From: a virus
Virus record (IMG/VR): IMGVR_UViG_3300033121_000149
Coordinates: 1 to 64,000 of that record
Direction: 5' to 3' (one strand)
Length of the DNA: 64,000 bases
Shown here in pieces: positions 6,370 through 21,578 of this stretch. The notes under the pieces were generated by a model. It did not search any database. It was given only the letters and a program-made list of their open reading frames with translations, and had not been told where the DNA came from. A program made the position numbers and the translations under genes. Position 1 is the stretch's first letter, and the number at the start of each line of letters is the position of its first letter.

Positions 6370-6536
6370 AACAAGAAAACATAAGTAACGAGTTATGGTG
6401 CTCGCTATGGAACTCGCTAGGGGTCTCGCTAAGGGACTCGCTAGGGGTCTCGCTAAGGAACTCGCTATGGAACTCGCTAGAGGACTCGCTATGGAACTCC
6501 CTACGGAGGGAATATGAATTTGTGGTTATTATCTAA
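6366..6536 (+). repeat. MKQENIS cassette 4. Minigene (56 aa), 9 repeat units, divergent 3' end (REYEFVVII*)
   Basis: ATGA overlap with GHKL stop; CTCGCTA 12-mers. Confidence 0.8.
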
Positions 6537-8068: not shown

Positions 8069-8217
8069 GTAATGATCTTTATATTGAACTTAGTAATAGT
8101 TTATGGTATTGTTTTGGTAGTATAACAAACTCTTTAGTTTATCGTGTATTTATTTACGATGCTAGTTTTCCACATCATAGAACAGTAAAACAGATATTAC
8201 AAGGTATGACAGTATGA
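8056..8217 (+). CDS. MENIS-family minigene (53 aa; MENISNDLY...SNSLWY)
   Basis: GGAGGAGTT RBS; protein-level xSLx motifs without DNA tandem. Confidence 0.4.
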   Translation: MENISNDLYIELSNSLWYCFGSITNSLVYRVFIYDASFPHHRTVKQILQGMTV

Positions 8218-8423
8218 AACAAGAAAATATAAGTAACGAGTTAAGGAACTCGCTATGGAACTCGCTATACGACTCGCTATACTACTCGCTATGGGACTCG
8301 CTAGGGAACTCGCTATGGGACTCGCTAGGGAACTCGCTATGGAACTCGCTATGGGACTCGCTAGGGAACTCGCTATGGAACTCGCTATACTACTCGCTAT
8401 GGAGGGAGTATGGAGAATATTAG
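8214..8423 (+). repeat. MKQENIS cassette 5. Minigene (69 aa), 13 repeat units
   Basis: Conserved ends; ATGA overlap. Confidence 0.85.
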
Positions 8424-8580: not shown

Positions 8581-9016
8581 TCCACAGTTTAACGGAATGT
8601 ATATTCCTGAAAACGATACCATCATCATTAAACAAGGACTTCCTGATAGATGGAAAGAATACGTTATTAACCATGAGTTATATCACGCATCGGGACATAC
8701 TGAACGTAATAACCGATATACACTAACACACTTTAACGATCTAGCTATAAACAGAATACATGAAGAGTTATTCGCTGATACATTAGCGTATATTATAGAT
8801 ACTTGTAGATATGGACAAGATACTTGTATTACTTATCAATGGAAATACTACATAATAACACAATCTCGATCAACTTTCGATGATATTAAACTAGATTACA
8901 ATGATTTATATCAAGCTCTAGACTACTTCTTTGAAGGAGAGTATAATGAAAAAGTGTTTAATAACTGTAAACAATTTATAGAGAAGGTAATATATGAAAC
9001 AAGAAAACATAAGTGA
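8531..9016 (+). CDS. HExxH zinc-metallopeptidase-like small protein (161 aa; HELYHASGH); alternative start 8549
   Basis: HExxH motif; AAAGGAAAAAT RBS before 8549 ATG. Confidence 0.5.
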   Translation: MIQRKNMFYPTIKYVANPQFNGMYIPENDTIIIKQGLPDRWKEYVINHELYHASGHTERNNRYTLTHFNDLAINRIHEELFADTLAYIIDTCRYGQDTCITYQWKYYIITQSRSTFDDIKLDYNDLYQALDYFFEGEYNEKVFNNCKQFIEKVIYETRKHK

Positions 9017-9155
9017 CGAGTTATGGGTCTCGCTAGGGAACTCGCTATGGAACTCGCTATACGACTCGCTATACTACTCGCTAGGGTACTCGCTAAGGAA
9101 CTCGCTATGTAACTCGCTAAGGAACTCGCTACGGAGGGAGTATGGAGAATATTAG
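8994..9155 (+). repeat. MKQENIS cassette 6. Minigene (53 aa), 9 repeat units
   Basis: Conserved ends. Confidence 0.85.
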
Positions 9156-9945: not shown

Positions 9946-10145
9946 AGCGTAAAAAGAAACGTGTTCAAGTCAAGGACGACGAGATAAAGATTCCTAAGAC
10001 AGTAATCGATTCCAAGATGGAGTCGATTCATGTTAGTAATATTCATATGGATGCTTGGGTCGACACTGACACAGTATTCTATTGGATGTCCGAGGAAGAT
10101 TTACTAGACACGTTTCATTTTGCGTATGCTTCTTACGAGGAGTAG
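9939..10145 (+). CDS. hypothetical protein (68 aa)
   Basis: ORF. Confidence 0.45.
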   Translation: MVKRKKKRVQVKDDEIKIPKTVIDSKMESIHVSNIHMDAWVDTDTVFYWMSEEDLLDTFHFAYASYEE

Positions 10146-10151
10146 TATTAT

Positions 10152-10409
10152 ATGGTTAGTAGAATTAAATACGAACGTAGATCTGACGTTAATAACGAGT
10201 ACTGTACACCTCTCTACGTACTTCTAGGTGAGATAGTATACGGTTATGTTACACCTTCAACGTATGGTGTTAAATACCTACGTGGTGATATTATCTATCA
10301 TAACACATGTGATAATCTACGTCAAGGTAAAAGTAAATTAAAAAAGAAATTAGTAGAGTTAGGTGTTGTATTTTACGAGGAAGTTAGAAGTGGACGTAGT
10401 ACTCCTTAA
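10152..10409 (+). CDS. hypothetical protein (85 aa)
   Basis: ORF with GAGGAG upstream. Confidence 0.5.
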   Translation: MVSRIKYERRSDVNNEYCTPLYVLLGEIVYGYVTPSTYGVKYLRGDIIYHNTCDNLRQGKSKLKKKLVELGVVFYEEVRSGRSTP

Positions 10410-10504
10410 ATTTAGATACACAATACTCTCGATCTTTTAAAGTTTTTATCCACGTTACTAGTATAGTATACGTTAAAAAATGATGTCAAGCGTTATTTTA
10501 AAGT

Positions 10505-10535
10505 TTTTTAAAAGAAACGTTATTTTATAAGAGGT
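10505..10535 (+). promoter_or_regulatory. conserved upstream motif copy 2
   Basis: TTTTTTAAAAGAAACGTTATTTTATAAGAGG. Confidence 0.4.
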
Positions 10536-10540
10536 TATGT

Positions 10541-10801
10541 ATGTCGATAACAAAACAATGGAAAGTAACAGATTGGGGACAGATTCCAGACACTCCTGTT
10601 TACGGTGGACGTAATAAACCAGAGGTTGTAAACTCTATAGATCAGAAATACTGTAATCATGAATGGAAGGAAATACTCTTACTAAATACTACAGTGTATA
10701 ACTGTAAACACTGTGATAAAAAGAAAGAAGATTATGAAAAAGAACAGAAAGAGTCAAGCACTACCGAGTGGAAGACTGATTGGCGTGATTACATTTATTA
10801 A
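10541..10801 (+). CDS. hypothetical zinc-ribbon protein (86 aa)
   Basis: CNHEW...CKHC; preceded by conserved AAAAGAAACGTTATTTTATAAGAGG motif. Confidence 0.5.
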   Translation: MSITKQWKVTDWGQIPDTPVYGGRNKPEVVNSIDQKYCNHEWKEILLLNTTVYNCKHCDKKKEDYEKEQKESSTTEWKTDWRDYIY

Positions 10802-10825
10802 CATGTTACTTGCTTTTACAGCTAG

Positions 10826-11107
10826 TTGTATGTTAACATTAATATTATTTATACTAATGATGAGGTTGGTATGGTAAAGAGAAGAGTTGTTTTAAGACGT
10901 TTAAAACAGAAGAAACAAGTAGAAGATCATGGTAGAATGTTTTGTGAGTACTGTGATAAAACAGTATACGAACGAAATAGTATACATAGACAACACGATG
11001 ATGCTACTGCAGATCACATAATACCACGTGCCAAGGGTGGTAAAGATACGTATGATAATATAGCAGTATGTTGTTGGGAATGTAACTGGCAAAAGAGAGA
11101 TTCATAA
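10826..11107 (+). CDS. HNH endonuclease (93 aa)
   Basis: CEYC...DHIIP...DNIAVCCWECNWQK HNH signature. Confidence 0.6.
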   Translation: MYVNINIIYTNDEVGMVKRRVVLRRLKQKKQVEDHGRMFCEYCDKTVYERNSIHRQHDDATADHIIPRAKGGKDTYDNIAVCCWECNWQKRDS

Positions 11108-11349: not shown

Positions 11350-11526
11350 ATGAAACAAAAAAATATAAGTGACGAGTTAAGTGATGAATTAACAGCCTCG
11401 CTATGGGACTCGCTAAGGGACTCGCTATGGTACTCGCTAGGGAACTCGCTATGGTACTCGCTATACGATTGGCTAGGGAACTCGCTATGTAGGGAGTATG
11501 AATTTAATAACAAGGAGAATGTATGA
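11350..11526 (+). repeat. MKQENIS cassette 7 (degenerate; MKQKNISDEL, about 8 units, divergent 3' end)
   Basis: Conserved 5' end; CTCGCTA units; ATGA overlap at 11523. Confidence 0.75.
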
Positions 11527-11915
11527 AACAATTAGTATTAATGTCATTATTATGTACAACATTAACAGGGTGTGGAAAGTGGTATGCAAGTTGGCAAGGT
11601 GAGATAGCTAAAATCGAAAAACAAAAATCAGGTGAAGCTCAGTTATTAGAGGCTGAAAACACTAAACGTATTGCTATTGAAGACGCTAAGGCTAAGTTAG
11701 AGTCAGCTCGATTATTAGCTCAAGCTGAAGTTGAACGTGCAAAGGGTGTAGCAGAAGCTAATCAGATTATTGGAGATAGCTTAAAAGGTAACGAAGCGTA
11801 TTTACGTTATTTATATATCTCGAATTTAGAAAAAGCAGAATCGAATGGATCTGTTAACACTATTTACATTCCAACAGAAGCAGGATTACCTATTTTAGAG
11901 GCTAGGAATAAGTAA
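11523..11915 (+). CDS. lipoprotein (130 aa) with SPFH/HflC-like C-terminal region
   Basis: Signal LMSLLCTTLTGC lipobox; AEAERAKGVAEA...AYLRYLYI resembles SPFH C-terminus. Confidence 0.5.
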   Translation: MKQLVLMSLLCTTLTGCGKWYASWQGEIAKIEKQKSGEAQLLEAENTKRIAIEDAKAKLESARLLAQAEVERAKGVAEANQIIGDSLKGNEAYLRYLYISNLEKAESNGSVNTIYIPTEAGLPILEARNK

Positions 11916-11944
11916 AATTGATCCCAAGTGATTTGAATTGTATT

Positions 11945-11975
11945 TTTAAAAAGAAAGGGTTTTTATTTTTAGAGG
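11945..11975 (+). promoter_or_regulatory. conserved upstream motif copy 3
   Basis: TTTTAAAAAGAAAGGGTTTTTATTTTTAGAGG. Confidence 0.4.
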
Positions 11976-11979
11976 TGTT

Positions 11980-12417
11980 ATGGAATTAGTTTACAAAAAA
12001 GGTGATTTATTACAAGCCATGCGAGATAAAGAGGTCGATCATATTATACATGGTTGTAACTCTTTAGGAGTTATGGGTTCAGGTATCGCTAAACAGATTC
12101 GTGATGAATATCCTAAATGTTTTGAAGTGTATAAGAATGGAGTTCTTAGATTAGGTTGGAGTAGTCATTACAAAGATGGAGAAGCTAGTATATTTAATCT
12201 AATAACACAATCAGACTTTCATCCTAGAACAGTTAGACATTGTAATTACGAAGCTCTCGCTGTTGGATTACATGATCTTAATGAATTATATGCTGGATCA
12301 CATTTTGGCTTACCTAAGATTGGCGCAGGACTAGGTGGTGGTGATTGGAATGTTATAGAAGCGATAATAAAAAGCGAAATGAAGGACTGTAAGGTAACTA
12401 TCTATACATTGGAGTAA
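11980..12417 (+). CDS. Macro domain protein (ADP-ribose binding/hydrolase)
   Basis: IIHGCNSLGVMGSGIA and GLPKIGAGLGGGDW macro motifs; conserved upstream motif. Confidence 0.65.
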   Translation: MELVYKKGDLLQAMRDKEVDHIIHGCNSLGVMGSGIAKQIRDEYPKCFEVYKNGVLRLGWSSHYKDGEASIFNLITQSDFHPRTVRHCNYEALAVGLHDLNELYAGSHFGLPKIGAGLGGGDWNVIEAIIKSEMKDCKVTIYTLE

Positions 12418-12421
12418 TAAC

Positions 12422-12619
12422 ATGAAACAAGTTAATATAAGTGACGAGTTATGGGACTCGCTATGGAACTCGCTATGGTGCTCGCTATGGGACTCGCTAA
12501 GGAACTCGCTAAGGTACTCGCTAAGGGACTCGCTAAGGAACTCGCTAGGGTACTCGCTAAGGAACTCGCTATGTAACTCGCTAAGGAACTCGCTACGGAG
12601 GGAGTATGGAGAATATTAG
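12422..12619 (+). repeat. MKQENIS cassette 8. Minigene (65 aa), 12 repeat units
   Basis: Conserved ends (MKQVNISDEL variant). Confidence 0.85.
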
Positions 12620-12868
12620 CTACGATCTTGTTAATACAACATGGGAGAGTTTATATAAATATACTCTATTAAATCACTATTATTTAAGACAATTACACGA
12701 TGATTTAAATGTACTATATTCAATACGGAGATGTACTGTATGAAAAATATTAGCCACGAATTAAGTAATGAGATATGGATAAACTTAATGACACCTGTTT
12801 CGGGAACACCTACTTTTGATATGATAGACGATAAACTTCGAATGTTGTTAATATGGAGATTACCATGA
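12606..12868 (+). other. Two MxNIS-family minigenes (12606-12743 MENISYDL, 12740-12868 MKNISHEL), ATGA-linked
   Basis: Family N-terminal motif; overlaps. Confidence 0.35.
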
Positions 12869-13677
12869 TAATACTAAATCACTCAGGATTACAAACTATC
12901 ATCAAACCTACTATCTTTCCAGATGGTACACAACAAGTATGGAAACTAGAGTTACTTAAAAGTAATAATTGTAACATAGTATGGAAGTATGAAAATGATG
13001 GAGAGCTTATAACACTTGCACAACTCATTGACTTACTTAAAAACGAAGGTATTCAAATTACTGGTATCTTTATTCCGTTCTTACCTTACGCACGACAGGA
13101 TAAATTAATAAGCAACACAACAACATTCGGACTTAATACGTTTTGTCGTATGTTAAATCAGATAACTGGAAACATAAATGTTTATTCGTTGGATATACAT
13201 AACAATGCTTATGGATCAGTCGAAAACATCGAACCTACTGAGTATATTCTTAAAGCTATTATAGAAAGCGAAGCTAGTCGTATTTGTTTCCCAGACAAGG
13301 GAGCTTTTAGACGTTACCATTCAGTAGTTCCTGATAATAAAGGTATCATAACACTTAATAAAATGCGTAATCAGGAAACAGGTGAGATCGTTGAAATGAG
13401 TCTTATATCAAACGATAAGGCTTTAATTAATGGAGGAGTGTTAATAGTTGACGATATTTGTGACGGAGGTGCAACGTTTATTAACACCGTTAAGTCATTA
13501 CGTTCAAACAGTATATTTCAAGGTTGTAACATTGATCTATACACTACTCATGGAATATACTCAAAGGGTATAAACAATTTAATTGACAACGGTATTAACA
13601 AACTCTATACTACAGATAGCTTTTGTAAGCTAGAAGAAAACAAACGATTAAAGATATTTCAAACGAGGTTTAAATGA
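12853..13677 (+). CDS. Prs-family ribose-phosphate pyrophosphokinase homologue (274 aa), candidate ADPR pyrophosphokinase (Adps) of an NAD reconstitution pathway; alt start 12865
   Basis: IPFLPYARQDK and VLIVDDICDGGAT PRPP-binding motifs; ATGA overlap with downstream Nampt-like gene. Confidence 0.6.
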   Translation: MEITMIILNHSGLQTIIKPTIFPDGTQQVWKLELLKSNNCNIVWKYENDGELITLAQLIDLLKNEGIQITGIFIPFLPYARQDKLISNTTTFGLNTFCRMLNQITGNINVYSLDIHNNAYGSVENIEPTEYILKAIIESEASRICFPDKGAFRRYHSVVPDNKGIITLNKMRNQETGEIVEMSLISNDKALINGGVLIVDDICDGGATFINTVKSLRSNSIFQGCNIDLYTTHGIYSKGINNLIDNGINKLYTTDSFCKLEENKRLKIFQTRFK

Positions 13678-15179
13678 AAGGCTTAATTCCTACACTTTTA
13701 TGTGATTTCTATAAAACTTGCCATCGAGAGCAATATCCACAAGGTACTGAAGTTGTATATTCAACTTGGACTCCACGTTCAGGTAAATTAGCTCCTAATA
13801 TTAAACATGTTGTATCGTTTGGTATCGAAGGATTTATCAAAGAATTTTTATTAGATTACTTTAACGAAAACTTTTTCAGTAGATCTAAACAAGATGTGGT
13901 AAACGAGTATAGTAGATATATGAAGAACTGTCTTCTTATTACTAATCCTCATACACAACACATTGAAGATTTACACGATTTAGGTTATTTACCTTTACAT
14001 ATTAAAGCATTAGAAGAAGGAACTCTGTTACCATTTAGAGTACCAATGTTGACAGTTGAGAATACCGATCCTCGTTTCTTCTGGTTGACAAATTATATCG
14101 AAACATTAGCATCAGCTAATCTATGGAAGCCAGCAACAACAGCTTCTATTGCTAAAGTTTATAATGATGTATTAACAAAGTTTGCAATGGAAACAGTTGG
14201 AGATGCAGGATTTGTACAGTTTCAAGGACACGATTTTTCAATGAGAGGAATGTCAGGTCTAGAAGATTCAGCGAGATCAGGAGCTGGACATTTACTATCA
14301 TTTGTCGGCACTGACACTATTCCAGCTATTCAATATGTAGAAGCTTATTATGGAGCTAATGTTGAAAAAGAATTAATTGGTTGTTCAGTAAACGCTAGTG
14401 AACATTCCGTGATGTGTTGTGGCAGCAAAGAAGGTGAATATGAAACATATCGTAGATTAATTCAAGATGTATATCCAACTGGTATTGTATCTTTAGTATC
14501 AGATACATGGGATTTGTTTAATGTTATTACAAACATTCTTCCACAATTAAAACCTATCATCATGTCACGTAATGGCGGTGAAGGTTCTATCGATAAAGTT
14601 GTAATTAGACCTGACTCAGGTGATCCTGCTGACATTCTATGTGGTGATCCTAAAGCTCCGGTAGGTAGTCCAGAAAGTAAAGGTGTAGTAGAACTTCTAT
14701 TTGAAATATTCGGAGGATCAACTAACGATAAAGGATTTAAATTACTTGATTCACATATCGGTGCTATTTACGGAGACTCTATCACTATCGACAGATGTAC
14801 TGAAATCTGTCAACGCTTAAAAGATAAAGGATTTGCTTCAACTAATGTTGTGTTCGGTATTGGTTCATATACATATCAGTATTTAACAAGAGATAGTTTA
14901 GGGTTTGCAATGAAAGCAACTTCTGTTACTATCAATGGTGTACAACAAGCGATCTTTAAAGACCCTAAAACTGACAACGGTACTAAGAAATCAGCTATGG
15001 GTAGAGTAAAAGTTATTAAAGATAAAGGAACGTTAGTAATGTTAGATGAAAGTAATAACGATCACCCAACGGCAGATGATTTACTAACAACAGTTTTCTT
15101 AAATGGAAAACTTACACGTAGTTCAACGTTTGGAGAGATCAGAGAACGATTAAAAGTTAATTCAAGTGAACTAAAGTAG
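13674..15179 (+). CDS. Nampt-family phosphoribosyltransferase (501 aa), NadV or Namat
   Basis: Size and N-terminus typical of nicotinamide phosphoribosyltransferase family; operon with Prs-like gene. Confidence 0.6.
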   Translation: MKGLIPTLLCDFYKTCHREQYPQGTEVVYSTWTPRSGKLAPNIKHVVSFGIEGFIKEFLLDYFNENFFSRSKQDVVNEYSRYMKNCLLITNPHTQHIEDLHDLGYLPLHIKALEEGTLLPFRVPMLTVENTDPRFFWLTNYIETLASANLWKPATTASIAKVYNDVLTKFAMETVGDAGFVQFQGHDFSMRGMSGLEDSARSGAGHLLSFVGTDTIPAIQYVEAYYGANVEKELIGCSVNASEHSVMCCGSKEGEYETYRRLIQDVYPTGIVSLVSDTWDLFNVITNILPQLKPIIMSRNGGEGSIDKVVIRPDSGDPADILCGDPKAPVGSPESKGVVELLFEIFGGSTNDKGFKLLDSHIGAIYGDSITIDRCTEICQRLKDKGFASTNVVFGIGSYTYQYLTRDSLGFAMKATSVTINGVQQAIFKDPKTDNGTKKSAMGRVKVIKDKGTLVMLDESNNDHPTADDLLTTVFLNGKLTRSSTFGEIRERLKVNSSELK

Positions 15180-15354
15180 TATCTTATATATGCCAGCTAT
15201 GTCTACCAACAACTGGTTAATTATAAGAGACACCACTAAAGATTATATATGGTAGGATGTATAATAGAGTAAGAAAACAGTAAGGTCATGTGGAGCCGCA
15301 TCAAAGTCTTAAAAATTTGTCGCTTACTCACTTCTAACGAATGTTGGAAAACTA

Positions 15355-15378
15355 GAACCGAGAAATCGGTTCTTTTTA
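15355..15378 (+). terminator. intrinsic terminator (GAACCGA-GAAA-TCGGTTC + TTTTTA)
   Basis: Perfect 7-bp stem, GNRA loop, T-tract. Confidence 0.7.
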
Positions 15379-15379
15379 T

Positions 15380-15406
15380 TTGACATATACTAAATATTAA
15401 TATAAG
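15380..15406 (+). promoter_or_regulatory. sigma70-like promoter TTGACA-N15-TATAAG upstream of flotillin gene
   Basis: Consensus -35, -10-like hexamer, followed by GGAGG RBS. Confidence 0.5.
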
Positions 15407-15434: not shown

Positions 15435-16853
15435 ATGACAATTTCAACGTTATTATTTTCAGGTTTAGGGTTAGCTTTGTTTGCTATCTCTTTCTTTCTA
15501 GCTGCGTTATGGAGACGAGTTGTTCCAACTAATGAAGTACATATTGTACAAACGAAGGGACAGACAATTAGTTACGGTAAGGATACAGGTAACGGTAACG
15601 TGTATTACCAAGTACCTACATGGGTTCCGTTGTTTGGTATCGAGAAAGTTGTATTACCAGTAAGTGTATTCGACATTGAGTTAAACGCTTACGAAGCTTA
15701 TGATAAAGGTAGACTACCATTCGTTGTTGACGTTAAAGCTTTCTTCCGTGTATCGGATTCATCAACAGCAGCTCAACGTGTTGCTAACTTTAGTGAATTA
15801 AAGGATCAACTTGTTGCAGTAGTACAAGGTGCTGTTCGTGCTATTCTAGCAGGTAGTGACATTGAAGAGATTATGCAAGGACGATCTAAGTTTGGTGATG
15901 AATTTACTAAAGAAGTAAAAGAACAATTAACTCATTGGGGTGTAGAACCTGTTAAGAATATCGAGTTAATGGACTTACGTGATAGCAAATCTAGTAATGT
16001 TATCCACAACATCATGGAGAAAAAGAAATCGATGATTGAAATGGAATCAAGACAAGAAGTTGCTAAGAATATGAAGACAGCTCAGATTGCTGAAATCGAA
16101 GCTAAAAGAGAAATCGAATTAAATAAACAAGAAGCTGAACAACAAGTAGGTTTACGTACAGTTGAAGCTAAACGTAAAGTCGATCTCGCCGAAGAAGATA
16201 GAAAACAGATGATTACAGATCAAGCTAAAACTACAGCAGAGAAAGCCGCTGAAGTATTAAGAGTTCAAAAGGTTAAAGCTGCTGAAATCGAGAAACAATC
16301 TCAGATTATTAAAGCTGAACAAGAAAAGACTACGGCTCTTTTAAAAGCAGAACAGGACAAAGCTACTGCTATCTTAAATGCAGAAGCTTCATTTGAATCT
16401 GTTAATAGAAAAGCAGAAGCTGATCTTAATAAGAATGTTAAAGACGCTGAAGGTTTAAAAGCTATCGGTAATGCTAAAGCAGAAGCTGAGAAACTTATGT
16501 TACTAGCTCCGGTCGAAGCACAAACTAGATTAGCTAAAGAGATTGGTGAAAATAAATCATACCAAGAATATCTAATTCAAATTAGAAAAGTTGAAGCTGA
16601 ACAAAATGTAGGTATTGAACAAGCTAAATCTTTACACCAAGCTGAAATTAAGATCATCGCAAATACTGGTTCAGCTACCAGTGGTATTAAATCAGTAATG
16701 GATATCTTTTCATCACAAGGTGGTGTACAATTAGGTGCAATGTTAGAAGGATTACAAAATACAGATACAGGTAAAGCATTACTAAGTACGTTAGGTGTTA
16801 AAGAACAAGCTGAAACTAAAGCAACTAGTTCAGCTACTGTTAAAAAACAATAA
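15435..16853 (+). CDS. flotillin-like SPFH/band-7 protein (472 aa) with N-terminal TM
   Basis: N-terminal hydrophobic segment, SPFH core, C-terminal EA/KA-rich flotillin repeats. Confidence 0.65.
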   Translation: MTISTLLFSGLGLALFAISFFLAALWRRVVPTNEVHIVQTKGQTISYGKDTGNGNVYYQVPTWVPLFGIEKVVLPVSVFDIELNAYEAYDKGRLPFVVDVKAFFRVSDSSTAAQRVANFSELKDQLVAVVQGAVRAILAGSDIEEIMQGRSKFGDEFTKEVKEQLTHWGVEPVKNIELMDLRDSKSSNVIHNIMEKKKSMIEMESRQEVAKNMKTAQIAEIEAKREIELNKQEAEQQVGLRTVEAKRKVDLAEEDRKQMITDQAKTTAEKAAEVLRVQKVKAAEIEKQSQIIKAEQEKTTALLKAEQDKATAILNAEASFESVNRKAEADLNKNVKDAEGLKAIGNAKAEAEKLMLLAPVEAQTRLAKEIGENKSYQEYLIQIRKVEAEQNVGIEQAKSLHQAEIKIIANTGSATSGIKSVMDIFSSQGGVQLGAMLEGLQNTDTGKALLSTLGVKEQAETKATSSATVKKQ

Positions 16854-16862
16854 GTTACATAC

Positions 16863-16896
16863 GAGCTATTCGGAATTACCGAATAGCTCCTTTATA
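16863..16896 (+). terminator. intrinsic terminator (11-bp stem GAGCTATTCGG/CCGAATAGCTC, loop AATTA, T-rich tail)
   Basis: Perfect inverted repeat followed by CTTTATAT. Confidence 0.65.
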
Positions 16897-16972
16897 TCAG
16901 AAGTAGTTAAATTGGTTATAACGATGGATTGTGAGTCCGTAGTAAAGAGTTCGAATCTCTTCTTCTGAACCA
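16897..16972 (+). tRNA. tRNA-His: tRNA-His (anticodon GTG), no encoded G-1, A73, encoded CCA
   Basis: Hand-folded cloverleaf: acceptor TCAGAAG/CTTCTGA, D-arm GTTA/TAAC, anticodon stem ATGGA/TCCGT, loop TTGTGAG, T-arm AAGAG-TTCGAAT-CTCTT. Confidence 0.7.
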
Positions 16973-17038
16973 TAATATTATACCTTATCGGGTATAATAT
17001 TAACAGAAACGATAGATCTACACCCGATAGGGTATAAA

Positions 17039-17557
17039 ATGAATACAAAAATAAGTAAAGATTTATTCGACAAGTTAACATCTAACAAGCATATATCGTA
17101 TACAGTAGGCTCTACTCTCCATAATAACAGAAAACAAAACAGTGATACAGATTATGTATTAGTACTATCTGATAACGACTTAGTTGAAGATATAACATAT
17201 CAATATAACAACGGTACTGATGATTTTATCATAGTCAATGAAAGTAGATTCAATAGATGTAGAGAAGATGGTAGCGATATTGTATTCTTCGAAGCTGATC
17301 CTATTAAACCTAATAAAAATATTATACGTGCATACTTAGGACTTGCTAAACGAGATTGGAAAGAGTATATTAAAACAGGGAATAAGAAAAAGAAGTATCA
17401 CGCAATTAGGTGTTATTGTATAGCTTCAAGTCTTTATAAACACGGTAAACCTCAACTTGATTACAATGCGTATATTGCAGAAATAGAGACTTCTAATTTA
17501 AAAGATTGTGATTTACCTGATATGTATAACAGTCTTAGGCGAAAATTAAATGAGTAA
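17039..17557 (+). CDS. Pol-beta superfamily nucleotidyltransferase (172 aa)
   Basis: GS-x12-DTD motif (TVGSTLHNNRKQNSDTDYVLVL). Confidence 0.5.
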   Translation: MNTKISKDLFDKLTSNKHISYTVGSTLHNNRKQNSDTDYVLVLSDNDLVEDITYQYNNGTDDFIIVNESRFNRCREDGSDIVFFEADPIKPNKNIIRAYLGLAKRDWKEYIKTGNKKKKYHAIRCYCIASSLYKHGKPQLDYNAYIAEIETSNLKDCDLPDMYNSLRRKLNE

Positions 17558-18185
17558 AACGTACTTTATATCAGATACCCATTTCTTTCATGATAATATC
17601 ATAAGATTCTGTAACAGACCTTTTATTGACATTGAACATATGCACACAAGACTTATCAATAACTGGAATAAAGTCGTAAAACAAGATGATACTGTTATTA
17701 TAGTAGGTGATTTCTCGTTTGGTAAAGCAGAAGATACTCGATCAATTGTTTCACAACTTAAAGGTAAGAAAATTCTAATACGTGGAAATCATGACAAAAA
17801 TGTGAATGTAGGATTCGATCATGTATGTGAAGAGATGATGTTAACAATAGCAAATGAACGTGTTTTAATTTCTCATTACCCTTATAGACATACTAAAATA
17901 CGAAGGTTGTTATTTAAACTAAAACATTTATTAAAAGGTGTTATAATCAGAGATAGAAAAAACTGGCACTATCCAGAAGATCGTGGGTTATATCTTATTC
18001 ATGGACATACACATGATAAAGAAAGGATCAAAGGTCGTATGATACATGTAGGTGTTGATGCTTGGAATTTTAAACCAGTACCTTTGCAAGCAATAGCTGA
18101 TTTAATTGTTCAATCGAGGAGAAAAAATGAAACTATTAGACGACTACTACAATCCTGTTCATGGCTTAGAACTAGAACCAAATAA
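17550..18185 (+). CDS. calcineurin-like metallophosphoesterase (211 aa)
   Basis: DTHF, GDF, GNHD, GHTH motifs in order. Confidence 0.7.
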   Translation: MSKTYFISDTHFFHDNIIRFCNRPFIDIEHMHTRLINNWNKVVKQDDTVIIVGDFSFGKAEDTRSIVSQLKGKKILIRGNHDKNVNVGFDHVCEEMMLTIANERVLISHYPYRHTKIRRLLFKLKHLLKGVIIRDRKNWHYPEDRGLYLIHGHTHDKERIKGRMIHVGVDAWNFKPVPLQAIADLIVQSRRKNETIRRLLQSCSWLRTRTK

Positions 18186-18867
18186 AAATACTGGAGATCG
18201 AAATAACGAAAACGGTATTCTATTCTTAGTTGAGTTTATGTTCTTATCAGAGTTTAGAACAGACGACGATGTAGCTGATAAGTTCAACGACGTTGTTAAA
18301 CGTTTAGAAGTAGAAAAAGGTCTTTATGATAGAGGTGCTCTTGATGGTATGATTACATCTATTAATGGTGTTGACTTACCTAAAAGAACTATTTCCCATG
18401 ATAATATATCAGCAATATCAGCAGGTTCTAGATTAATCAACGATCTAACTAATGGTCAAGAATGTTTCTTTCATCATGATATAGCAGAGTATGGTTTGAA
18501 ACATTTCTTCGTATTTAATAATAACCGTAAAGGATTTCGAGCACCTATGAATCCCGGTAATTATTCTATATGGTTAGCGTTAGGTCAAAGAGCATTAATT
18601 CTACAAATACTATTTTTACCGTTCTATCTTATAAACTTTTTTATAACCAATAATAAACCAGCTAATGAAACGTCGGGAAAACTATTAAACTTTGTTGAAT
18701 TATACCCATTGCGTAAAAAGTTTTTTTGGAGTATGATGTATAAAGTATATACAAGCATGATGCGACGTATGTACGACAAAGATTACATGGTTAAACTAAC
18801 TGAGATTTATTTTAAGGATGAAAAACATCCAGTTAGGATAGCCTCTTTGTTATTCCAAGAGGATTAA
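18127..18867 (+). CDS. hypothetical protein (about 246 aa)
   Basis: GAGGAGAAAAAATG RBS. Confidence 0.55.
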   Translation: MKLLDDYYNPVHGLELEPNKNTGDRNNENGILFLVEFMFLSEFRTDDDVADKFNDVVKRLEVEKGLYDRGALDGMITSINGVDLPKRTISHDNISAISAGSRLINDLTNGQECFFHHDIAEYGLKHFFVFNNNRKGFRAPMNPGNYSIWLALGQRALILQILFLPFYLINFFITNNKPANETSGKLLNFVELYPLRKKFFWSMMYKVYTSMMRRMYDKDYMVKLTEIYFKDEKHPVRIASLLFQED

Positions 18868-18868
18868 C

Positions 18869-19048
18869 ATGAAACAACAAAATATTAGTGACGAGTTGTT
18901 TATACAACTTAGAGGTAATTTAATAAATCAGTTACGTTTTAGTCTGTATGGATTACCTTATTATAAATATCAACATGAATATTACGCATTTTTATATCAC
19001 AAATTATATGATAGTATTTACTTTAATAGTCTAGGAGAAATTTTATGA
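18869..19048 (+). CDS. MKQENIS-family minigene without array (MKQQNISDELF, 59 aa)
   Basis: Conserved 5' end; ATGA overlap at 19045. Confidence 0.4.
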   Translation: MKQQNISDELFIQLRGNLINQLRFSLYGLPYYKYQHEYYAFLYHKLYDSIYFNSLGEIL

Positions 19049-19293
19049 GAAAAGAACTAACAGTATATGTCCCAACAACGGAAGACGGTGAAGAAGTTTC
19101 ATTGAAAGGTATTTCACCTGATGGTAAAATAGTGTTATTCGAATTAGCTGGAGTAGGTAGATTCGCCATCAATTCAGATGAATTAAAGAAAGCTTTTATG
19201 GAAATTGAAATCTTTCAAAGTGTTAATAAAAAACAAGAGACACCTGTTCAGCAAATAGACTTTATCGATTGTAATGTGGAGTTTGGATCGTAA
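19045..19293 (+). CDS. hypothetical protein (82 aa)
   Basis: ORF. Confidence 0.5.
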   Translation: MRKELTVYVPTTEDGEEVSLKGISPDGKIVLFELAGVGRFAINSDELKKAFMEIEIFQSVNKKQETPVQQIDFIDCNVEFGS

Positions 19294-20156
19294 TGAATAT
19301 AACAATACTTGTAGGACCACCGGGGTCTGGAAAATCAACATATTGTAAGACATTACTAAATCATGTTCGTATATCTCAAGACGATATGGGAAGAGACGGA
19401 CATTTAAAACAATTCAATGAAGCATTAGAACAAGGTAAAGATATTGTTGTAGATAGAATGAATTTCAATAAGTCACAACGAGCTAGATACTTAAATCCAG
19501 CTAAAGAAAAAGGATACACTACAACTATTGTAGTATTTTATAAAAGCTTTGATAGATGTTTATCAGCTTGTATGGAAAGACCTGAACATCCTACTATCAA
19601 AACATTACAATCAGCTAACGATGCTTTACATAGATTTTTTAAAGATTATCAATTTGTAACAGAAGATGAGGCTGACAGTATTGTAAGGGTAGATGATGAA
19701 GTGTTTCATAAAAAGAACGCAGTTCTTGTTGATTTAGATGGGACTCTTTGTGATATCGAACATAGATTACACTTTGTTAGAACTGATGGGAAAAAGGATT
19801 GGAAAGGATTTTTTGAAGGTATTATTAACGATAGGTTAAATCAAAACATTTATGAAATTGTTGACGAAGAGTATTTCTTAAAAGGTAGGTCAGTCATACT
19901 TTGTTCAGGTAGACCTGATGACTATAGAGGTATTACTGAAACATGGTTAAAGAATAAAGACGTTCAATATACTAAGTTATTGATGAGACAAAGGAACGAC
20001 TTTAGACAGGACGATATTGTAAAACAAATTATATATGAGTTTGACATAAGACCTTACTATAATGTAAAATATGTTTTAGATGATCGCAACCAAGTTGTTA
20101 ATATGTGGCGTAGAAATGGATTAACATGTTTACAGGTCGCTGAAGGGAATTTTTAA
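19293..20156 (+). CDS. pnk: polynucleotide kinase/phosphatase (P-loop kinase + HAD phosphatase), T4 Pnk-like
   Basis: Walker A GPPGSGKST at N-terminus; DxDGT (VLVDLDGTLCD) HAD motif I in C-terminal half. Confidence 0.65.
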   Translation: MNITILVGPPGSGKSTYCKTLLNHVRISQDDMGRDGHLKQFNEALEQGKDIVVDRMNFNKSQRARYLNPAKEKGYTTTIVVFYKSFDRCLSACMERPEHPTIKTLQSANDALHRFFKDYQFVTEDEADSIVRVDDEVFHKKNAVLVDLDGTLCDIEHRLHFVRTDGKKDWKGFFEGIINDRLNQNIYEIVDEEYFLKGRSVILCSGRPDDYRGITETWLKNKDVQYTKLLMRQRNDFRQDDIVKQIIYEFDIRPYYNVKYVLDDRNQVVNMWRRNGLTCLQVAEGNF

Positions 20157-20157
20157 C

Positions 20158-20319
20158 ATGAAACAAGAAAATATAAGTAACGAGTTAAGGAACTCGCTAT
20201 GGTACTCGCTATGGTACTCGCTAGGGAACTCGCTATGGTACTCGCTAAGGGTCTCGCTATGGTACTCGCTATGGTACTCGCTAAGGGACTCGCTACGGAG
20301 GGAGTATGGAGAATATTAG
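20158..20319 (+). repeat. MKQENIS cassette 9. Minigene (53 aa), 9 repeat units
   Basis: Conserved ends. Confidence 0.85.
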
Positions 20320-20351
20320 TGACTTACTAGTTATGAGAGGTATAATTTAAC

Positions 20352-20600
20352 ATGGCTACAACTACTATAGTTAAACATACATGCGATGTCTGTGGAGATA
20401 CAGCAGATCATTTACAAATTAAATTAGATGTTATATTCCAAACAGAGCAGACAGAAGGTAGAAGTGTTCCTAACTATTTAAGTATTGTAACTATTGACTT
20501 ATGTAAAGAGTGTAAAAAACATTTATTAAAGGGTAATTATATTTTCGCAACAGGAGCCATGGGCTATAACAAGTATCGTTTTTTAGGAGACTTTAAATGA
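20352..20600 (+). CDS. zinc-ribbon protein (82 aa)
   Basis: CDVCG...CKEC. Confidence 0.5.
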   Translation: MATTTIVKHTCDVCGDTADHLQIKLDVIFQTEQTEGRSVPNYLSIVTIDLCKECKKHLLKGNYIFATGAMGYNKYRFLGDFK

Positions 20601-21553
20601 AATCTATAGTTAAGATGGAATTTGGTTCAATTGTTTATGGTACAAATACTCCATCTTCTGATAAAGATTATAAAGAAATATTTATCCCCGATCATCGTGA
20701 TATAATTTTAGGAACAACTAAAGACTCATTACAAGTAACTACTAAATTAGACAAGTTAGCAAAAAACACTGAACAAGATGTTGACATTGAAATGTACAGT
20801 GTACAAAAATATCTTAACTTATTATCACAAGGACAAACAGTTGCTACTGATATGTTATTTGTACCAGAAAAACATATAATAGAACATACATATGAATGGG
20901 CACATATTGTTAGCAATAAACATAAGATTATTAACAGAAACTTGAGTGCGTTTATTGGATATTCAAAAACACAAGCCAATCGTTATGGTATTAGAGGAAG
21001 TCGAATGGCTGCCGTTGAAGGATTCATTAATCTTATTAAAGATTTACCAGACAACGATAGAATATCAGATCATATTACTAAGTTACAAGACTACTTAAAT
21101 AATACAGAGTATTGTTCTATTACTCAAAATAACGATAATATATTAATTGAAGTTTGTAATGCTAAAGTTCCAGTTAGAGATAAAGTAAAACGAGCTAAAG
21201 ATCTTTACGTAAGTATTTATAATGAATACGGAAACAGATCAAGACAAGCGAAGGAAAATCAAGGAATCGATTGGAAATCATTAGGACATGCTGTTCGTAT
21301 ATGTGAACAAGGGGTTGAACTTCTAGATACTGGACATGTAACATTTCCTAGACCTAATGCTAAAGATCTTTTAAAAATTAGAAAAGGTGAATATTCATAT
21401 CAAGAAGTAGCAACTAGAATTGAAGAAGGTTTAGATAAACTAGAATCTAAAATTCAAACATCATCATTACCTGATAAATCAGACATTGATTGGATTAACG
21501 ATACAATATATTCAATATACTCTAAACAAGTTGTTGACAATCAACCTAAGTAG
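20597..21553 (+). CDS. nucleotidyltransferase-fold protein (318 aa)
   Basis: GS-x11-DKD motif near N-terminus (GSIVYGTNTPSSDKDYKEIF). Confidence 0.45.
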   Translation: MKSIVKMEFGSIVYGTNTPSSDKDYKEIFIPDHRDIILGTTKDSLQVTTKLDKLAKNTEQDVDIEMYSVQKYLNLLSQGQTVATDMLFVPEKHIIEHTYEWAHIVSNKHKIINRNLSAFIGYSKTQANRYGIRGSRMAAVEGFINLIKDLPDNDRISDHITKLQDYLNNTEYCSITQNNDNILIEVCNAKVPVRDKVKRAKDLYVSIYNEYGNRSRQAKENQGIDWKSLGHAVRICEQGVELLDTGHVTFPRPNAKDLLKIRKGEYSYQEVATRIEEGLDKLESKIQTSSLPDKSDIDWINDTIYSIYSKQVVDNQPK

Positions 21554-21578
21554 ATATATCTTCTATATGGAGGGTATT

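What the first reader, a model, noticed from the sequence alone, without database searches (positions are those of the whole stretch)
11980..15179. Macro domain, Prs-like and Nampt-like operon: candidate NAD reconstitution (NARP1-like) anti-defence module
A Prs-family pyrophosphokinase (12853-13677) is translationally coupled (ATGA) to a Nampt-family enzyme (13674-15179). No NMN adenylyltransferase is visible. This is the gene pair described for phage NAD reconstitution pathway 1. In that pathway ADP-ribose is pyrophosphorylated (Adps) and condensed with nicotinamide (Namat). It counters NAD-depleting defences such as Thoeris, DSR, SIR2 and SEFIR systems. A macro domain gene (11980-12417) lies immediately upstream. 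That suggests coupling to ADP-ribose handling, for example removal of ADP-ribose from targets, processing of ADPR-derived signals, or DarT-type DNA ADP-ribosylation reversal. The operon ends at a clean terminator (15355).
Basis: partly seen in the sequence, partly recalled or inferred. Interest (0 to 1): 0.7.

Follow-up and report, generated by a model that had tools for sequence, protein, structure and literature searches.

The report
Phage NAD+ rebuilding operon (NARP1-AP type)
An uncultured phage carries a known kind of three-enzyme counter-defence module that is predicted to rebuild NAD+ from the fragments left when bacterial immune systems destroy it, so it is a good new example rather than a new kind of system.

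Summary
The three ORFs exist as described, and so do the ATGA overlap and the terminator at 15354.

- **Nampt-like protein (13674-15179): a Namat, not a Nampt.** It scores 650 bits against the crystallised SPbetaL1 Namat and about 250 bits against true Nampts. It carries the published adenine-clamp motif (GSYTYQYLTRD) and all catalytic residues.
- **Prs-like protein: an Adps.** It scores 231 bits on an HMM of Namat-linked Adps, against 122 bits for E. coli Prs. It falls below every curated Prs cut-off, as the tested Adps proteins do.
- **No Nmnat** was found in about 77 kb of this genome.
- **Macro protein.** It aligns end to end with the 'Adpp' ADPR-1''-phosphate phosphatases that a January 2026 preprint described in 15% of NARP1 operons (NARP1-AP, which counters aRES defence). 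It keeps their invariant residues, including the tested His24.

That role rests on homology and linkage only; an SCO6735-like de-ADP-ribosylase activity is not excluded.

Local peculiarities: the macro gene lies upstream of Adps, separated by three small ORFs of a lineage-specific 12-nt repeat family, and the phage has no cultured relative.

Verdict: new member of a known kind, low to moderate interest.

The parts
11980..12417 (+). Macro-domain protein (145 aa), predicted Adpp-type ADPR-1''-phosphate phosphatase
   Evidence: phrog_335 E 6e-46. Aligns full length with 10 NARP1-associated Adpps at 28-38% identity. H24, N27, G35, A37, P45, Q77, P112, G115, G120 and W123 are invariant. H24 corresponds to Gary Adpp H24, whose H24A mutation abolishes function. 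AlphaFold pLDDT 92.5, TARG1/DarG/Poa1p/SCO6735 fold class.
12422..12619 (+). Small ORF (65 aa) made of about 11 tandem 12-nt units [T/A/G]GG[T/A/G]ACTCGCTA. It is one of 11 such arrays in the window. It is intervening, and no role in the pathway is known.
   Evidence: No Pfam or PHROG hit. Only one weak homologue among 5.8 billion proteins. A shorter array sits at the same position after the macro gene in an 80%-identical relative.
12606..12743 (+). Small ORF (45 aa, MENIS... family), whose start overlaps the stop of the array ORF
   Evidence: Called as a gene on independent Logan contigs.
12731..12868 (+). Small ORF (42-45 aa, M..NIS.EL family). Its stop overlaps the probable Adps start at 12865 as ATGA.
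12853..13677 (+). Adps (ADP-ribose diphosphokinase, Prs-family), with the probable true start at 12865 (270 aa)
   Evidence: Below all NCBIfam Prs cut-offs: 85 bits against a TIGR01251 cut-off of 113, as for tested Adps at 106 and 100 bits. Scores 231 bits on an HMM of 70 Namat-linked Adps; tested Adps score 288 and 216, E. coli Prs 122. K170 corresponds to Gary Adps K192 and E. coli Prs K194.
13674..15179 (+). Namat (nicotinamide ADP-ribose transferase, Nampt-family)
   Evidence: 650 bits to PDB 9W5X/9W5W (SPbetaL1 Namat) against about 250 bits to Nampts. 59% identity to SPbetaL1 Namat. SCH motif GSYTYQYLTRD. SCL K38. 17 of 20 ligand-contact residues are identical and the other 3 are conservative. 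Catalytic H244 is present.
15354..15383 (+). Intrinsic-terminator-like hairpin plus T-run that ends the gene string
   Evidence: and the sequence

Best explanation
This is a phage NAD+ reconstitution pathway 1 module of the extended 'NARP1-AP' type. When a host defence system destroys NAD+, Adps (12865-13677) uses ATP to pyrophosphorylate the ADP-ribose fragment to ADPR-PP. Namat (13674-15179) then joins ADPR-PP to nicotinamide and regenerates NAD+ in two steps, without NMN or an Nmnat. The macro protein (11980-12417), encoded on the same tightly packed gene string, most likely acts first as an ADPR-1''-phosphate phosphatase (Adpp). It would convert the product of RES-domain NAD+ phosphorylases (aRES defence) into plain ADPR. 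The pathway would then also work against that defence, besides Thoeris, DSR, SIR2-HerA and SEFIR-type NADases. The chemistry is shown experimentally for homologues: SPbetaL1, Bas63, and Vibrio phage Gary for all three enzymes. The assignment of the window's Adps and Namat to those families is shown here by sequence. Three things are inferred: the macro protein's substrate, co-transcription, and the anti-defence phenotype in this phage. My confidence is about 0.9 for Adps and Namat being NARP1, and about 0.6-0.65 for the macro being Adpp.
For: Namat. The best PDB matches are the SPbetaL1 Namat crystal structures at 650 bits, against about 250 bits for any Nampt. The published Namat-specific clamp motif GS-X-phi-X-phi-X-phi-TRD (PMC12774641) is present as GSYTYQYLTRD. 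The clamp loop has Lys38 at the Arg/Lys/Tyr position. All catalytic-core residues and the catalytic His are conserved. Across the fetched loci, the motif or a close variant occurs in all 96 Namat homologues paired with an Adps-type neighbour, and in none of the 6 paired with a Prs-type neighbour.

Adps. It scores 231 bits on an Adps HMM built without it, with tested Adps at 288 and 216 bits and E. coli Prs at 122. It lies below every curated Prs cut-off, like the tested Adps proteins. The Lys mutated in Gary Adps (K192A) is conserved. Adps and Namat overlap as ATGA. 79 of 80 Namat relatives have an Adps alongside.

No Nmnat was found in the window or in about 13 kb of flanks.

Macro. It is a full-length homologue of the Adpps in the preprint's Table S1, with the invariant residues including the tested His24. 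It scores 78-86 bits against NARP1-linked Adpps and 40 bits against PhiKZ AdfM. 25 of 88 family members lie within 10 kb of NARP1, whereas NARP1 occurs in only about 4% of phages. The window's closest Namat relatives carry a macro gene within 0-6 kb. Two of the nearest macro homologues show the same macro, small ORF, Adps-type, Nampt-family order. Gaps between ORFs are at most 4 nt from 11980 to 15179, with no terminator before 15354.
Against: No biochemistry exists for these proteins. The macro family is not confined to NARP1 loci: 51 of 88 relatives have no NAD-salvage gene within 10 kb. The closest cultured-phage homologue (4MG, 44% identity) and P0006 (45%) are among these unlinked cases. 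NARP1-linked and unlinked members cannot be told apart at the catalytic positions. By sequence, the Adpp profile is closer to BT1257, SCO6735, DarG and TARG1 (80-59 bits) than to the phosphatase Poa1p (49 bits). SCO6735 has the same His24/Asn27/Gln layout and removes ADP-ribose from DNA and protein (PMC9411070). The macro gene is three small ORFs away from Adps, outside the preprint's 'within two genes' rule. Identity to the one tested Adpp is only 31%. Part of the genome, roughly 6-10 kb, was not seen. The host and its defences are unknown.
Confidence: 0.7

Rival explanations
1. Adps and Namat are NARP1, but the macro protein is a de-ADP-ribosylating hydrolase of the SCO6735/BT1257 type. It would remove ADP-ribose from phage DNA (against DarT2-type toxins) or from proteins. 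Its position next to NARP1 would be either coincidental clustering in an accessory or anti-defence region, or a way to release free ADPR.
For: The Adpp-family profile scores higher against BT1257 (80 bits) and SCO6735 (75 bits) than against Poa1p (49 bits). SCO6735 shares His24, Asn27 and the Gln at the TARG1/DarG lysine position, cleaves thymidine-linked ADPr-DNA and rescues cells from DarT. Phage macro proteins that counter DarT2 exist, such as PhiKZ AdfM. Most family members are not next to NARP1. The region also holds other counter-defence-like genes, an RNA repair set.
Against: The only tested member of this phage family (Gary Adpp) is an ADPR-1''-P phosphatase required for anti-aRES activity. 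The window protein is much closer to NARP1-linked Adpps (78-86 bits) than to AdfM (40 bits) or SCO6735 (31 bits). It lacks the catalytic Lys of DarG, TARG1 and AdfM, having Gln77 instead, and it lacks TARG1 Asp125. The two DNA-positioning lysines of SCO6735 (K34, K89) are Ser34 and His81 here, and K34 is mostly Ser or Ala across the phage family. The 28% linkage to NARP1 is far above chance.
Confidence: 0.15
2. The macro protein feeds NARP1 by processing a different defence-derived ADPR derivative, for example O-acetyl-ADPR, ADPR-2'-phosphate or a Thoeris-type signal. This would parallel the way RyDEP feeds NARP1 from cyclic ADPR.
For: A precedent exists for accessory enzymes in NARP1 loci that convert immune nucleotides to ADPR: RyDEP (bioRxiv 10.64898/2026.05.28.727677). 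Macro domains are generally promiscuous towards ADPR derivatives. JGI annotates relatives as O-acetyl-ADP-ribose deacetylase.
Against: No member of this family has been shown to do this. The tested member acts on ADPR-1''-P. The annotation is automatic. Nothing in the sequence points to a substrate other than that of the Adpps.
Confidence: 0.1
3. This is ordinary PRPP-based salvage (NARP2/NadV-like). The Prs-like enzyme makes PRPP, the Nampt-like enzyme makes NMN, and an Nmnat encoded elsewhere or supplied by the host completes NAD+ synthesis.
For: Both proteins belong to the Prs and Nampt superfamilies. Namat retains about half of human Nampt's PRPP activity in vitro. About 6-10 kb of the genome was not inspected.
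Against: The Namat clamp motif is present and the protein is 59% identical to the crystallised Namat. The Prs-like protein is Adps-type by reciprocal HMM scoring. No Nmnat was found in about 77 kb. Osterman et al. found no phage with both pathways, and 97% of Adps-clade genes lie next to a Namat.
Confidence: 0.03

Closest known systems
NARP1-AP of Vibrio phage Gary (Adps-Adpp-Namat; Osterman et al., bioRxiv 10.64898/2026.01.28.702374)
   Same: It has the same three protein families on one strand. The residues mutated in Gary are conserved here (Adps K192 = K170, Adpp H24 = H24, Namat H243 = H244). Both Namats have the clamp motif.
   Different: The gene order is macro-(3 small ORFs)-Adps-Namat instead of Adps-Adpp-Namat. 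Identities are low (Adpp 31%, Adps 29%, Namat 45%). The macro gene lies outside the preprint's two-gene neighbourhood rule. The phage lineage is unrelated. Nothing has been tested experimentally.
NARP1 of Bacillus phage SPbetaL1 (Adps + Namat; Osterman et al. 2024; Namat structures 9W5X/9W5W, PMC12774641)
   Same: The Namats are 59% identical, and every NAM/NMN/AMP-contact residue is identical or conservatively replaced. Both have an overlapping Adps-Namat gene pair.
   Different: SPbetaL1 has no macro gene at the locus. Adps is only about 30% identical. The clamp loop has Lys38 where SPbetaL1 has Arg40.
NARP2 of Vibrio phage KVP40 (Nampt + bifunctional Nmnat)
   Same: It uses a Nampt-superfamily enzyme and rebuilds NAD+ to defeat NAD+-depleting defences.
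   Different: NARP2 uses PRPP and NMN, needs an Nmnat and lacks Adps. The window has Adps and a clamp-bearing Namat, and no Nmnat was found.
PhiKZ AdfM / DarG2 macrodomain antitoxins
   Same: Both are phage-encoded stand-alone macro domains of the same fold class.
   Different: AdfM and DarG carry the catalytic Lys (FPTK) and lack His24. The window protein has Gln77 and His24, and scores only 40 bits against AdfM.
SCO6735 / BT1257 bacterial macrodomains
   Same: They share the His24/Asn27/Gln active-site layout and are the best PDB sequence matches of the Adpp profile.
   Different: They are cellular proteins. SCO6735 acts on ADPr-DNA and ADPr-protein and uses Lys34 and Lys89 for DNA positioning. 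These are Ser34 and His81 in the window protein.
Yeast Poa1p (ADP-ribose 1''-phosphate phosphatase, PDB 6LFQ-6LFU)
   Same: It has the same fold (TM 0.76-0.79) and the activity proposed here. The preprint names it as the closest homologue of Adpp with a known function.
   Different: Sequence similarity is weak (27 bits for the window protein, 49 bits for the Adpp profile). It is a eukaryotic tRNA-splicing housekeeping enzyme.

Membership tests
NARP1 (Adps + Namat) | The Prs-family protein belongs to the Adps clade, separate from canonical Prs | tested here: met
   Adps HMM built from 70 Namat-linked sequences, window excluded: window 231 bits, tested SPbetaL1 288, tested Gary 216, E. coli Prs 122, jumbo-phage Prs-like 110-125. 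TIGR01251 gives 85 bits against a cut-off of 113, with tested Adps at 106 and 100. No maximum-likelihood tree was built.
NARP1 (Adps + Namat) | The Namat gene lies immediately next to the Adps gene | tested here: met
   4-nt ATGA overlap at 13674-13677. 79 of 80 Namat relatives show the same pairing.
NARP1 (Adps + Namat) | The Nampt-family protein belongs to the Namat clade rather than the Nampt clade | tested here: met
   650 bits to SPbetaL1 Namat (9W5X/9W5W) against at most 252 bits to any Nampt in the PDB.
NARP1 (Adps + Namat) | Selectivity-clamp helix motif GS-X-phi1-X-phi2-X-phi3-TRD with aromatic X | tested here: met
   GSYTYQYLTRD at residues 397-407. phi3 is Leu rather than the usual Asn or Val, but GSFTYQYLTRD also occurs in other Adps-linked Namats.
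NARP1 (Adps + Namat) | The selectivity-clamp loop has Arg, Lys or Tyr at its third position | tested here: met
   Lys38 aligns with SPbetaL1 Arg40. Whether Leu39 can stack on adenine was not modelled.
NARP1 (Adps + Namat) | Conserved catalytic core (F189, R192, D215, R306, D308 and the catalytic His; Adps flexible-loop Lys) | tested here: met
   F188, R191, D214, R312, D314 and H244 in Namat; K170 in Adps.
NARP1 (Adps + Namat) | No Nmnat in the same phage genome | tested here: met
   No Nmnat-type Pfam family among window ORFs of at least 110 aa, and none on record for flanking contigs L170 and L172. An estimated 6-10 kb of the genome was not seen.
NARP1 (Adps + Namat) | ADPR + ATP gives ADPR-PP, then nicotinamide gives NAD+; the module rescues phage from NAD+-depleting defences | not testable with these tools
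   This needs purified proteins with LC-MS, and plaque assays.
NARP1-AP (NARP1 with associated phosphatase Adpp) | A macro-domain protein lies within two genes of the NARP1 genes (preprint's detection rule) | tested here: inconclusive
   The macro fold is confirmed. The gene is 435 bp upstream on the same strand, but three small ORFs intervene. It is adjacent only if these are not counted as genes.
NARP1-AP (NARP1 with associated phosphatase Adpp) | Homology to the tested Adpp, with the catalytic His (Gary H24) conserved | tested here: met
   Full-length alignment with Gary Adpp (31% identity, E 7e-13) and 9 other Table S1 Adpps (28-38%). H24 and N27 are invariant.
NARP1-AP (NARP1 with associated phosphatase Adpp) | ADPR-1''-phosphate phosphatase activity; required to overcome aRES | not testable with these tools
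   This needs an enzyme assay and co-expression with aRES.
DarG2 / AdfM-type anti-DarT macrodomain | Catalytic lysine (DarG K80, TARG1 K84) in the ...PTK... segment | tested here: not met
   Gln77 occupies that position and TARG1 Asp125 is Gly. AdfM has FPTK and matches the window protein at only 40 bits.
SCO6735-type ADPr-DNA/protein hydrolase | His24/Asn27/Gln85 layout plus the DNA-positioning Lys34 and Lys89 | tested here: inconclusive
   His24, Asn27 and Gln77 are present. Lys34 is Ser34 and Lys89 is His81. Activity on ADPr-DNA cannot be excluded from sequence.
Canonical ribose-phosphate diphosphokinase (Prs) | Scores above the curated NCBIfam Prs cut-offs | tested here: not met
   Best result is 85 bits against a cut-off of 113 (TIGR01251). 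All equivalog models are far below their cut-offs. The best PDB Prs match is 42 bits.
NARP2 (Nampt + Nmnat) | A clamp-less, PRPP-preferring Nampt together with an Nmnat and no Adps | tested here: not met
   The clamp is present, an Adps is present, and no Nmnat was found.

The most novel reading that the evidence does not exclude
The macro enzyme may not be a dedicated ADPR-1''-P phosphatase. It could be a broader 'ADPR-liberating' hydrolase with SCO6735-like chemistry. It would strip ADP-ribose from several defence products, such as ADPR-1''-P from aRES and ADPr-DNA or ADPr-protein from DarT-like transferases, and hand the free ADPR to Adps and Namat. One module would then both undo ADP-ribosylation and recycle it into NAD+. 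A related possibility concerns the lineage-specific 12-nt repeat cassettes, one of which sits between the macro gene and Adps. These could be functional elements, either recombination or regulatory punctuation or hypervariable small proteins, that assemble such accessory genes into the early region.
Probability: 0.12. Interest if true: 0.55.

Novelty: new member of a known kind. Interest (0 to 1): 0.25.

Why it matters
If the prediction holds, this phage can rebuild NAD+ after attack by both canonical NADase defences and RES-type NAD+ phosphorylases. It extends the recently described NARP1-AP counter-defence to an uncultured phage lineage with no cultured relative. It also shows a gene order (macro first, with inserted small ORFs) that a strict two-gene neighbourhood rule would miss, so the reported 15% of NARP1 operons with an Adpp is probably an underestimate. 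The analysis also shows that the Adpp-type macro family shares its active-site layout with SCO6735-type ADPr-DNA hydrolases and occurs mostly away from NARP1. Its substrate range therefore deserves direct testing. None of this changes the current picture of NAD+-centred phage-host conflict.

Tried and rejected
- Megablast of the locus against 50,697 phage records gave no match. The phage has no close cultured relative; its primase-helicase is at most 26% identical to anything in that collection.
- A single-sequence search of IMG/VR with the macro protein found nothing. The alignment-based search was needed.
- I first argued that Gln77 in place of the DarG/TARG1 catalytic Lys excludes a DarT-reversal role. 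I withdrew this after reading that SCO6735, which has the same Gln, cleaves ADPr-DNA. The argument now holds only against the DarG2/AdfM type.
- The NCBIfam DarG hit (59 bits, cut-off 250) does not discriminate, because the tested Gary Adpp also hits that model (35 bits).
- Fold search confirms the macro class but cannot separate Poa1p, TARG1, DarG and SCO6735 (TM 0.72-0.79 for all).
- Residue comparison of NARP1-linked and unlinked macro homologues found no distinguishing position.
- Promoter-like sites are at chance level (20 found, 19.6 expected), so nothing was inferred about transcription starts.
- No solved Adps structure exists in the PDB copy, so no structural Adps-versus-Prs comparison was made.
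- Look-up of the 540-aa ORF at 60552-62174 found nothing on record.
- Searches for the 12-nt array or its junction gave two chance single matches in IMG/VR, no three-unit match in IMG/VR, and one irrelevant metagenome hit. Rfam found only the tRNA.

Full report
**Observation.** The window is a phage genome segment of about 33% G+C. Early, replication and nucleotide-metabolism genes lie on the + strand (1-46 kb), and structural genes lie on the - strand. The Adps stop and the Namat start overlap as ATGA. A hairpin followed by a T-run lies at 15354-15383, and no + strand terminator was predicted earlier in the string.

Two details need correcting.
- The macro gene is not immediately upstream of Adps. 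Three small overlapping ORFs fill the 435 bp in between.
- Adps most likely starts at 12865, not 12853. That start has GGAG six bases upstream and forms a second ATGA overlap with the preceding small ORF. It is the start called on independent contigs, and it aligns with Met1 of SPbetaL1 Adps.

From 11980 to 15179 no gap between consecutive ORFs exceeds 4 nt.

**Namat.** The 501-aa protein is a Nampt-superfamily member (PF04095, E 3e-41). Its best matches among solved structures are 9W5X and 9W5W at 650 bits, against about 250 bits for mammalian Nampts and about 210-220 bits for a bacterial one. These two entries are the SPbetaL1 Namat structures of Lan et al., NAR 2026 (PMC12774641).

That paper defines what separates Namat from Nampt. 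The catalytic core is shared. Namat adds an adenine 'selectivity clamp' made of two parts:
- a helix motif GS-X-phi-X-phi-X-phi-TRD with aromatic X;
- a variable loop whose third residue is Arg, Lys or Tyr.

The window protein has GSYTYQYLTRD, and Lys38 aligns with SPbetaL1 Arg40. Of the 20 residues that contact NAD+ in the crystal, 17 are identical. The other three are R40K, F392Y and A362S. The catalytic His is present as H244.

I tested how well the motif discriminates on loci fetched from IMG/VR. All 96 Namat homologues whose neighbour is Adps-type have the motif or a near variant (83 match it strictly). All 6 whose neighbour is Prs-type lack it.

**Adps.** The 270/274-aa protein is Prs-like but falls below every curated NCBIfam Prs cut-off (best 85 bits against 113 for TIGR01251). 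The two experimentally tested Adps proteins behave the same way, SPbetaL1 at 106 bits and Gary at 100 bits. No Adps structure is in the PDB, and the best Prs match is 42 bits.

I built an HMM from 70 distinct Adps sequences that lie next to Namat relatives in IMG/VR, excluding the window. Scores were as follows.

| Protein | Bits on the Adps HMM |
|---|---|
| Window protein | 231 |
| SPbetaL1 Adps (tested) | 288 |
| Gary Adps (tested) | 216 |
| E. coli Prs | 122 |
| Prs-like proteins of jumbo phages | 110-125 |

The Lys whose mutation kills Gary Adps (K192A) is K170 here, and it aligns with the flexible-loop Lys194 of E. coli Prs. In 79 of 80 loci centred on Namat relatives an Adps homologue lies alongside; the exception is cut by a contig end. 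This matches the published figure that 97% of Adps-clade genes sit next to a Namat.

**No Nmnat.** No Nmnat-type family appears among window ORFs of at least 110 aa. The source genome could be followed about 9 kb beyond the window start, through early genes, endolysin, terminase, protease and portal. It could be followed about 4.3 kb beyond the window end, through structural genes. No such family is on record in either flank. Relatives have genomes of 80-85 kb, so perhaps 6-10 kb remain unseen. Osterman et al. found no phage with both NARP1 and NARP2.

**The macro protein.** Pfam Macro is sub-threshold (18.3 bits). PHROG 335 ('phosphatase') matches at E 6e-46. An AlphaFold model (pLDDT 92.5) matches BT1257, DarG, TARG1, Poa1p and SCO6735 at TM 0.72-0.79.

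The decisive literature is Osterman et al., bioRxiv January 2026 (10.64898/2026.01.28.702374). Its findings are:
- 15% of NARP1 operons carry a macro-domain gene.
- In Vibrio phage Gary the operon Adps-Adpp-Namat overcomes aRES, a RES-domain defence that phosphorolyses NAD+ to nicotinamide and ADPR-1''-phosphate, a product NARP1 cannot use.
- Purified Adpp converts ADPR-1''-P to ADPR.
- The H24A mutation abolishes the phenotype.

The window protein aligns end to end with Gary Adpp (31% identity, E 7e-13) and with nine other Adpps from that paper's Table S1 (28-38% identity). It shares all ten invariant positions, including His24 and Asn27.

**Linkage of the macro gene to NARP1.**
- Among 88 phage homologues of the macro protein with usable context, 25 lie within 10 kb of an Adps-type plus Namat-type pair. 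Another 12 lie near other Nampt-family genes. NARP1 occurs in only about 4% of phages.
- The window's closest Namat relatives (62-70% identity: L007, L008, L009, L069, L075, L077) all have a macro gene 0-6 kb away wherever downstream DNA is available.
- L008 and L069 are genuine relatives of this phage: RNR 70-74% identical, PNKP about 50%, RNA ligase about 58%.
- The position of the macro gene varies: after Namat, between Adps and Namat, or 5 kb downstream. Table S1 also lists several orders.
- Two of the nearest macro homologues (47% and 43% identity) show exactly the window's order: macro, small ORF, Adps-type, Nampt-family gene.

**What remains uncertain about the macro protein.**
- Most family members are not near NARP1 (51 of 88). 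These include the closest cultured-phage homologue (4MG, 44% identity) and P0006 (45%).
- Linked and unlinked members are identical at the catalytic positions.
- The Adpp profile is closer in sequence to BT1257 (80 bits), SCO6735 (75), DarG (64) and TARG1 (59) than to the phosphatase Poa1p (49).

I first took Gln77, which aligns with the catalytic Lys of DarG and TARG1, as excluding DarT reversal. That is wrong as a general argument. SCO6735 has His24, Asn27 and Gln85, cleaves thymidine-linked ADPr-DNA and protects against DarT (PMC9411070).

What can be said is narrower. The window protein is not of the DarG2/AdfM type. PhiKZ AdfM has FPTK, lacks His24 and matches at only 40 bits, against 78-86 bits for NARP1-linked Adpps. 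The window protein also lacks SCO6735's DNA-positioning Lys34 and Lys89, which are Ser34 and His81 here. I therefore rate 'macro = Adpp' at about 0.6-0.65, an SCO6735-like hydrolase at about 0.15, and another ADPR-derivative-processing role at about 0.1.

**Mechanism proposed.**
1. Host NADases (TIR, SIR2, SEFIR) yield ADPR and nicotinamide. RES-type phosphorylases yield ADPR-1''-P and nicotinamide.
2. The macro protein (Adpp) removes the 1''-phosphate. This step is inferred here and shown for Gary Adpp.
3. Adps transfers pyrophosphate from ATP to ADPR, giving ADPR-PP. The family assignment is shown here; the chemistry is shown for SPbetaL1, Bas63 and Gary.
4. Namat displaces the pyrophosphate with nicotinamide, giving NAD+. 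The family assignment and clamp are shown here; the chemistry and structure are shown for SPbetaL1.

Co-transcription is inferred from the packing of the ORFs and from the single downstream terminator.

**Comparison with what is known, and novelty.** The locus meets every sequence-level criterion for NARP1. It meets the homology criterion for NARP1-AP. It fails only the preprint's operational 'within two genes' rule, and only if the three small ORFs are counted. It is a new member of a known kind, in a phage lineage without cultured relatives. The exact proteins recur in a few metagenomes: JGI 3300033075, a 73-kb JGI contig, and Logan SRR32380191/200/201. NARP3 (PnuC plus NadR; PMC13464706) is unrelated.

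**Side observations.** The small ORFs between the macro gene and Adps belong to a family of about 25 small ORFs in window 600-27200. They share the N-terminus M(K/E)(Q)ENIS(D/E)L.
- Eleven of them are arrays of 5-17 copies of a 12-nt unit [T/A/G]GG[T/A/G]ACTCGCTA, read as x-x-Ser-Leu.
- Ser is TCG and Leu is CTA in 113 of 115 units. Variation is confined to nucleotides 1 and 4.
- Each array ends ...RREYGEY*, and that stop overlaps the MENIS start of the next small ORF.
- This pattern points to DNA-level repetition or very recent slippage, not ordinary purifying selection on a protein.
- Short-read assemblies break at these arrays.
- An 80%-identical relative has a 2-3-unit array at the same place after its macro gene.
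- The arrays are absent from more distant relatives and essentially absent from public protein and contig collections.
- Rfam finds nothing there. Their function is unexplained.

Downstream of the module lie an SPFH/Band_7 protein, tRNA-His and an RNA-repair set: RlaP-like nucleotidyltransferases, a metallophosphoesterase, PNKP and an RNA ligase. This stretch therefore looks like an accessory or counter-defence region.

**Verdict.** The macro coupling is supported and can be stated more precisely as the already published NARP1-AP. Interest 0.25.

Noticed in passing
window 600-27200, + strand (arrays at 602-811, 2038-2307, 2881-3054, 6366-6536, 8214-8423, 8994-9155, 11350-11526, 12422-12619, 20158-20319, 24811-24948, 26880-27041): About 25 small ORFs share the N-terminus M(K/E)(Q)ENIS(D/E)L. 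Eleven are tandem arrays of 5-17 copies of a 12-nt unit [T/A/G]GG[T/A/G]ACTCGCTA. Ser is always TCG and Leu always CTA, and only nucleotides 1 and 4 vary. Each array ends RREYGEY*, overlapping the MENIS start of a following small ORF. There is no Pfam, PHROG or Rfam match, and the family is essentially absent from public collections apart from an 80%-identical relative. Function unknown.
   Followed up: partly
window ~2884 and ~12593; L004-L006, L170: Independent short-read assemblies of this phage (Logan SRR32380191/200/201 and JGI 3300033075) end inside the 12-nt arrays. The arrays behave as assembly-breaking repeats, and array length differs between relatives: 11 units in the window and 2-3 units in L174.
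   Followed up: partly
L176:4416-8083 and L177:8001-11147: Two of the nearest macro homologues sit in macro, small ORF, Adps-type (223 and 260 bits on the Adps HMM), Nampt-family strings. Their Nampt-family protein has a Nampt-like GIGGLLLQQHNRD instead of the Namat clamp and is only 35% identical to the window Namat. This pairs an Adps-type enzyme with a clamp-less partner, a combination not covered by the published Namat signature.
   Followed up: partly
L092/L094, L134/L135, L147, L165 (contigs of 192-369 kb; L094 is a 54-kb contig with the same genes as L092): Jumbo-phage contigs carry the same macro family within 10 kb of a canonical-scoring Prs-like gene (110-125 bits on the Adps HMM) and a clamp-less Nampt-like gene. 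L126, L144 and L156 have the macro gene directly followed by a Nampt-like gene with no Adps. The macro family therefore associates with several kinds of NAD-salvage sets, not only NARP1.
   Followed up: no
L075 and L077, 10001-12436: In these close relatives (70% identity) the Namat reading frame is matched in two pieces, 10001-10951 and 11858-12436, separated by about 900 bp. This suggests an intron, intein or homing-endonuclease insertion. The macro gene follows directly at 12447-12875.
   Followed up: no
window 15435-23004: Directly after the module's terminator lie a 472-aa SPFH/Band_7 protein (15435-16853), tRNA-His (16897-16972) and an RNA-repair-like set. The set comprises RlaP-like nucleotidyltransferases (17039-17557, a weak match; 20597-21553), a metallophosphoesterase (17550-18185), PNKP (19293-20156) and an RNA ligase (21778-23004). 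L177 also has Band_7 and PNKP genes near its macro-Adps-Nampt string.
   Followed up: no
whole window; L170, L172: The phage has no cultured relative. There is no megablast hit, and the primase-helicase at 30105-32045 is at most 26% identical to anything in INPHARED. SU10/P22-type portal and SU10 adaptor hits suggest a podovirus-like virion with a genome of about 80-85 kb. The host is unknown.
   Followed up: partly
window 965-1903: A 312-aa ORF with a DUF6745 domain (E 6e-10) lies among the repeat arrays near the window start. Its function is unknown.
   Followed up: no
PDB entry 9KE8/9KEO: A further solved 'nicotinamide phosphoribosyltransferase' matches the window Namat at 535 bits, far above true Nampts. 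It is probably another phage Namat structure. Its identity was not established.
   Followed up: no
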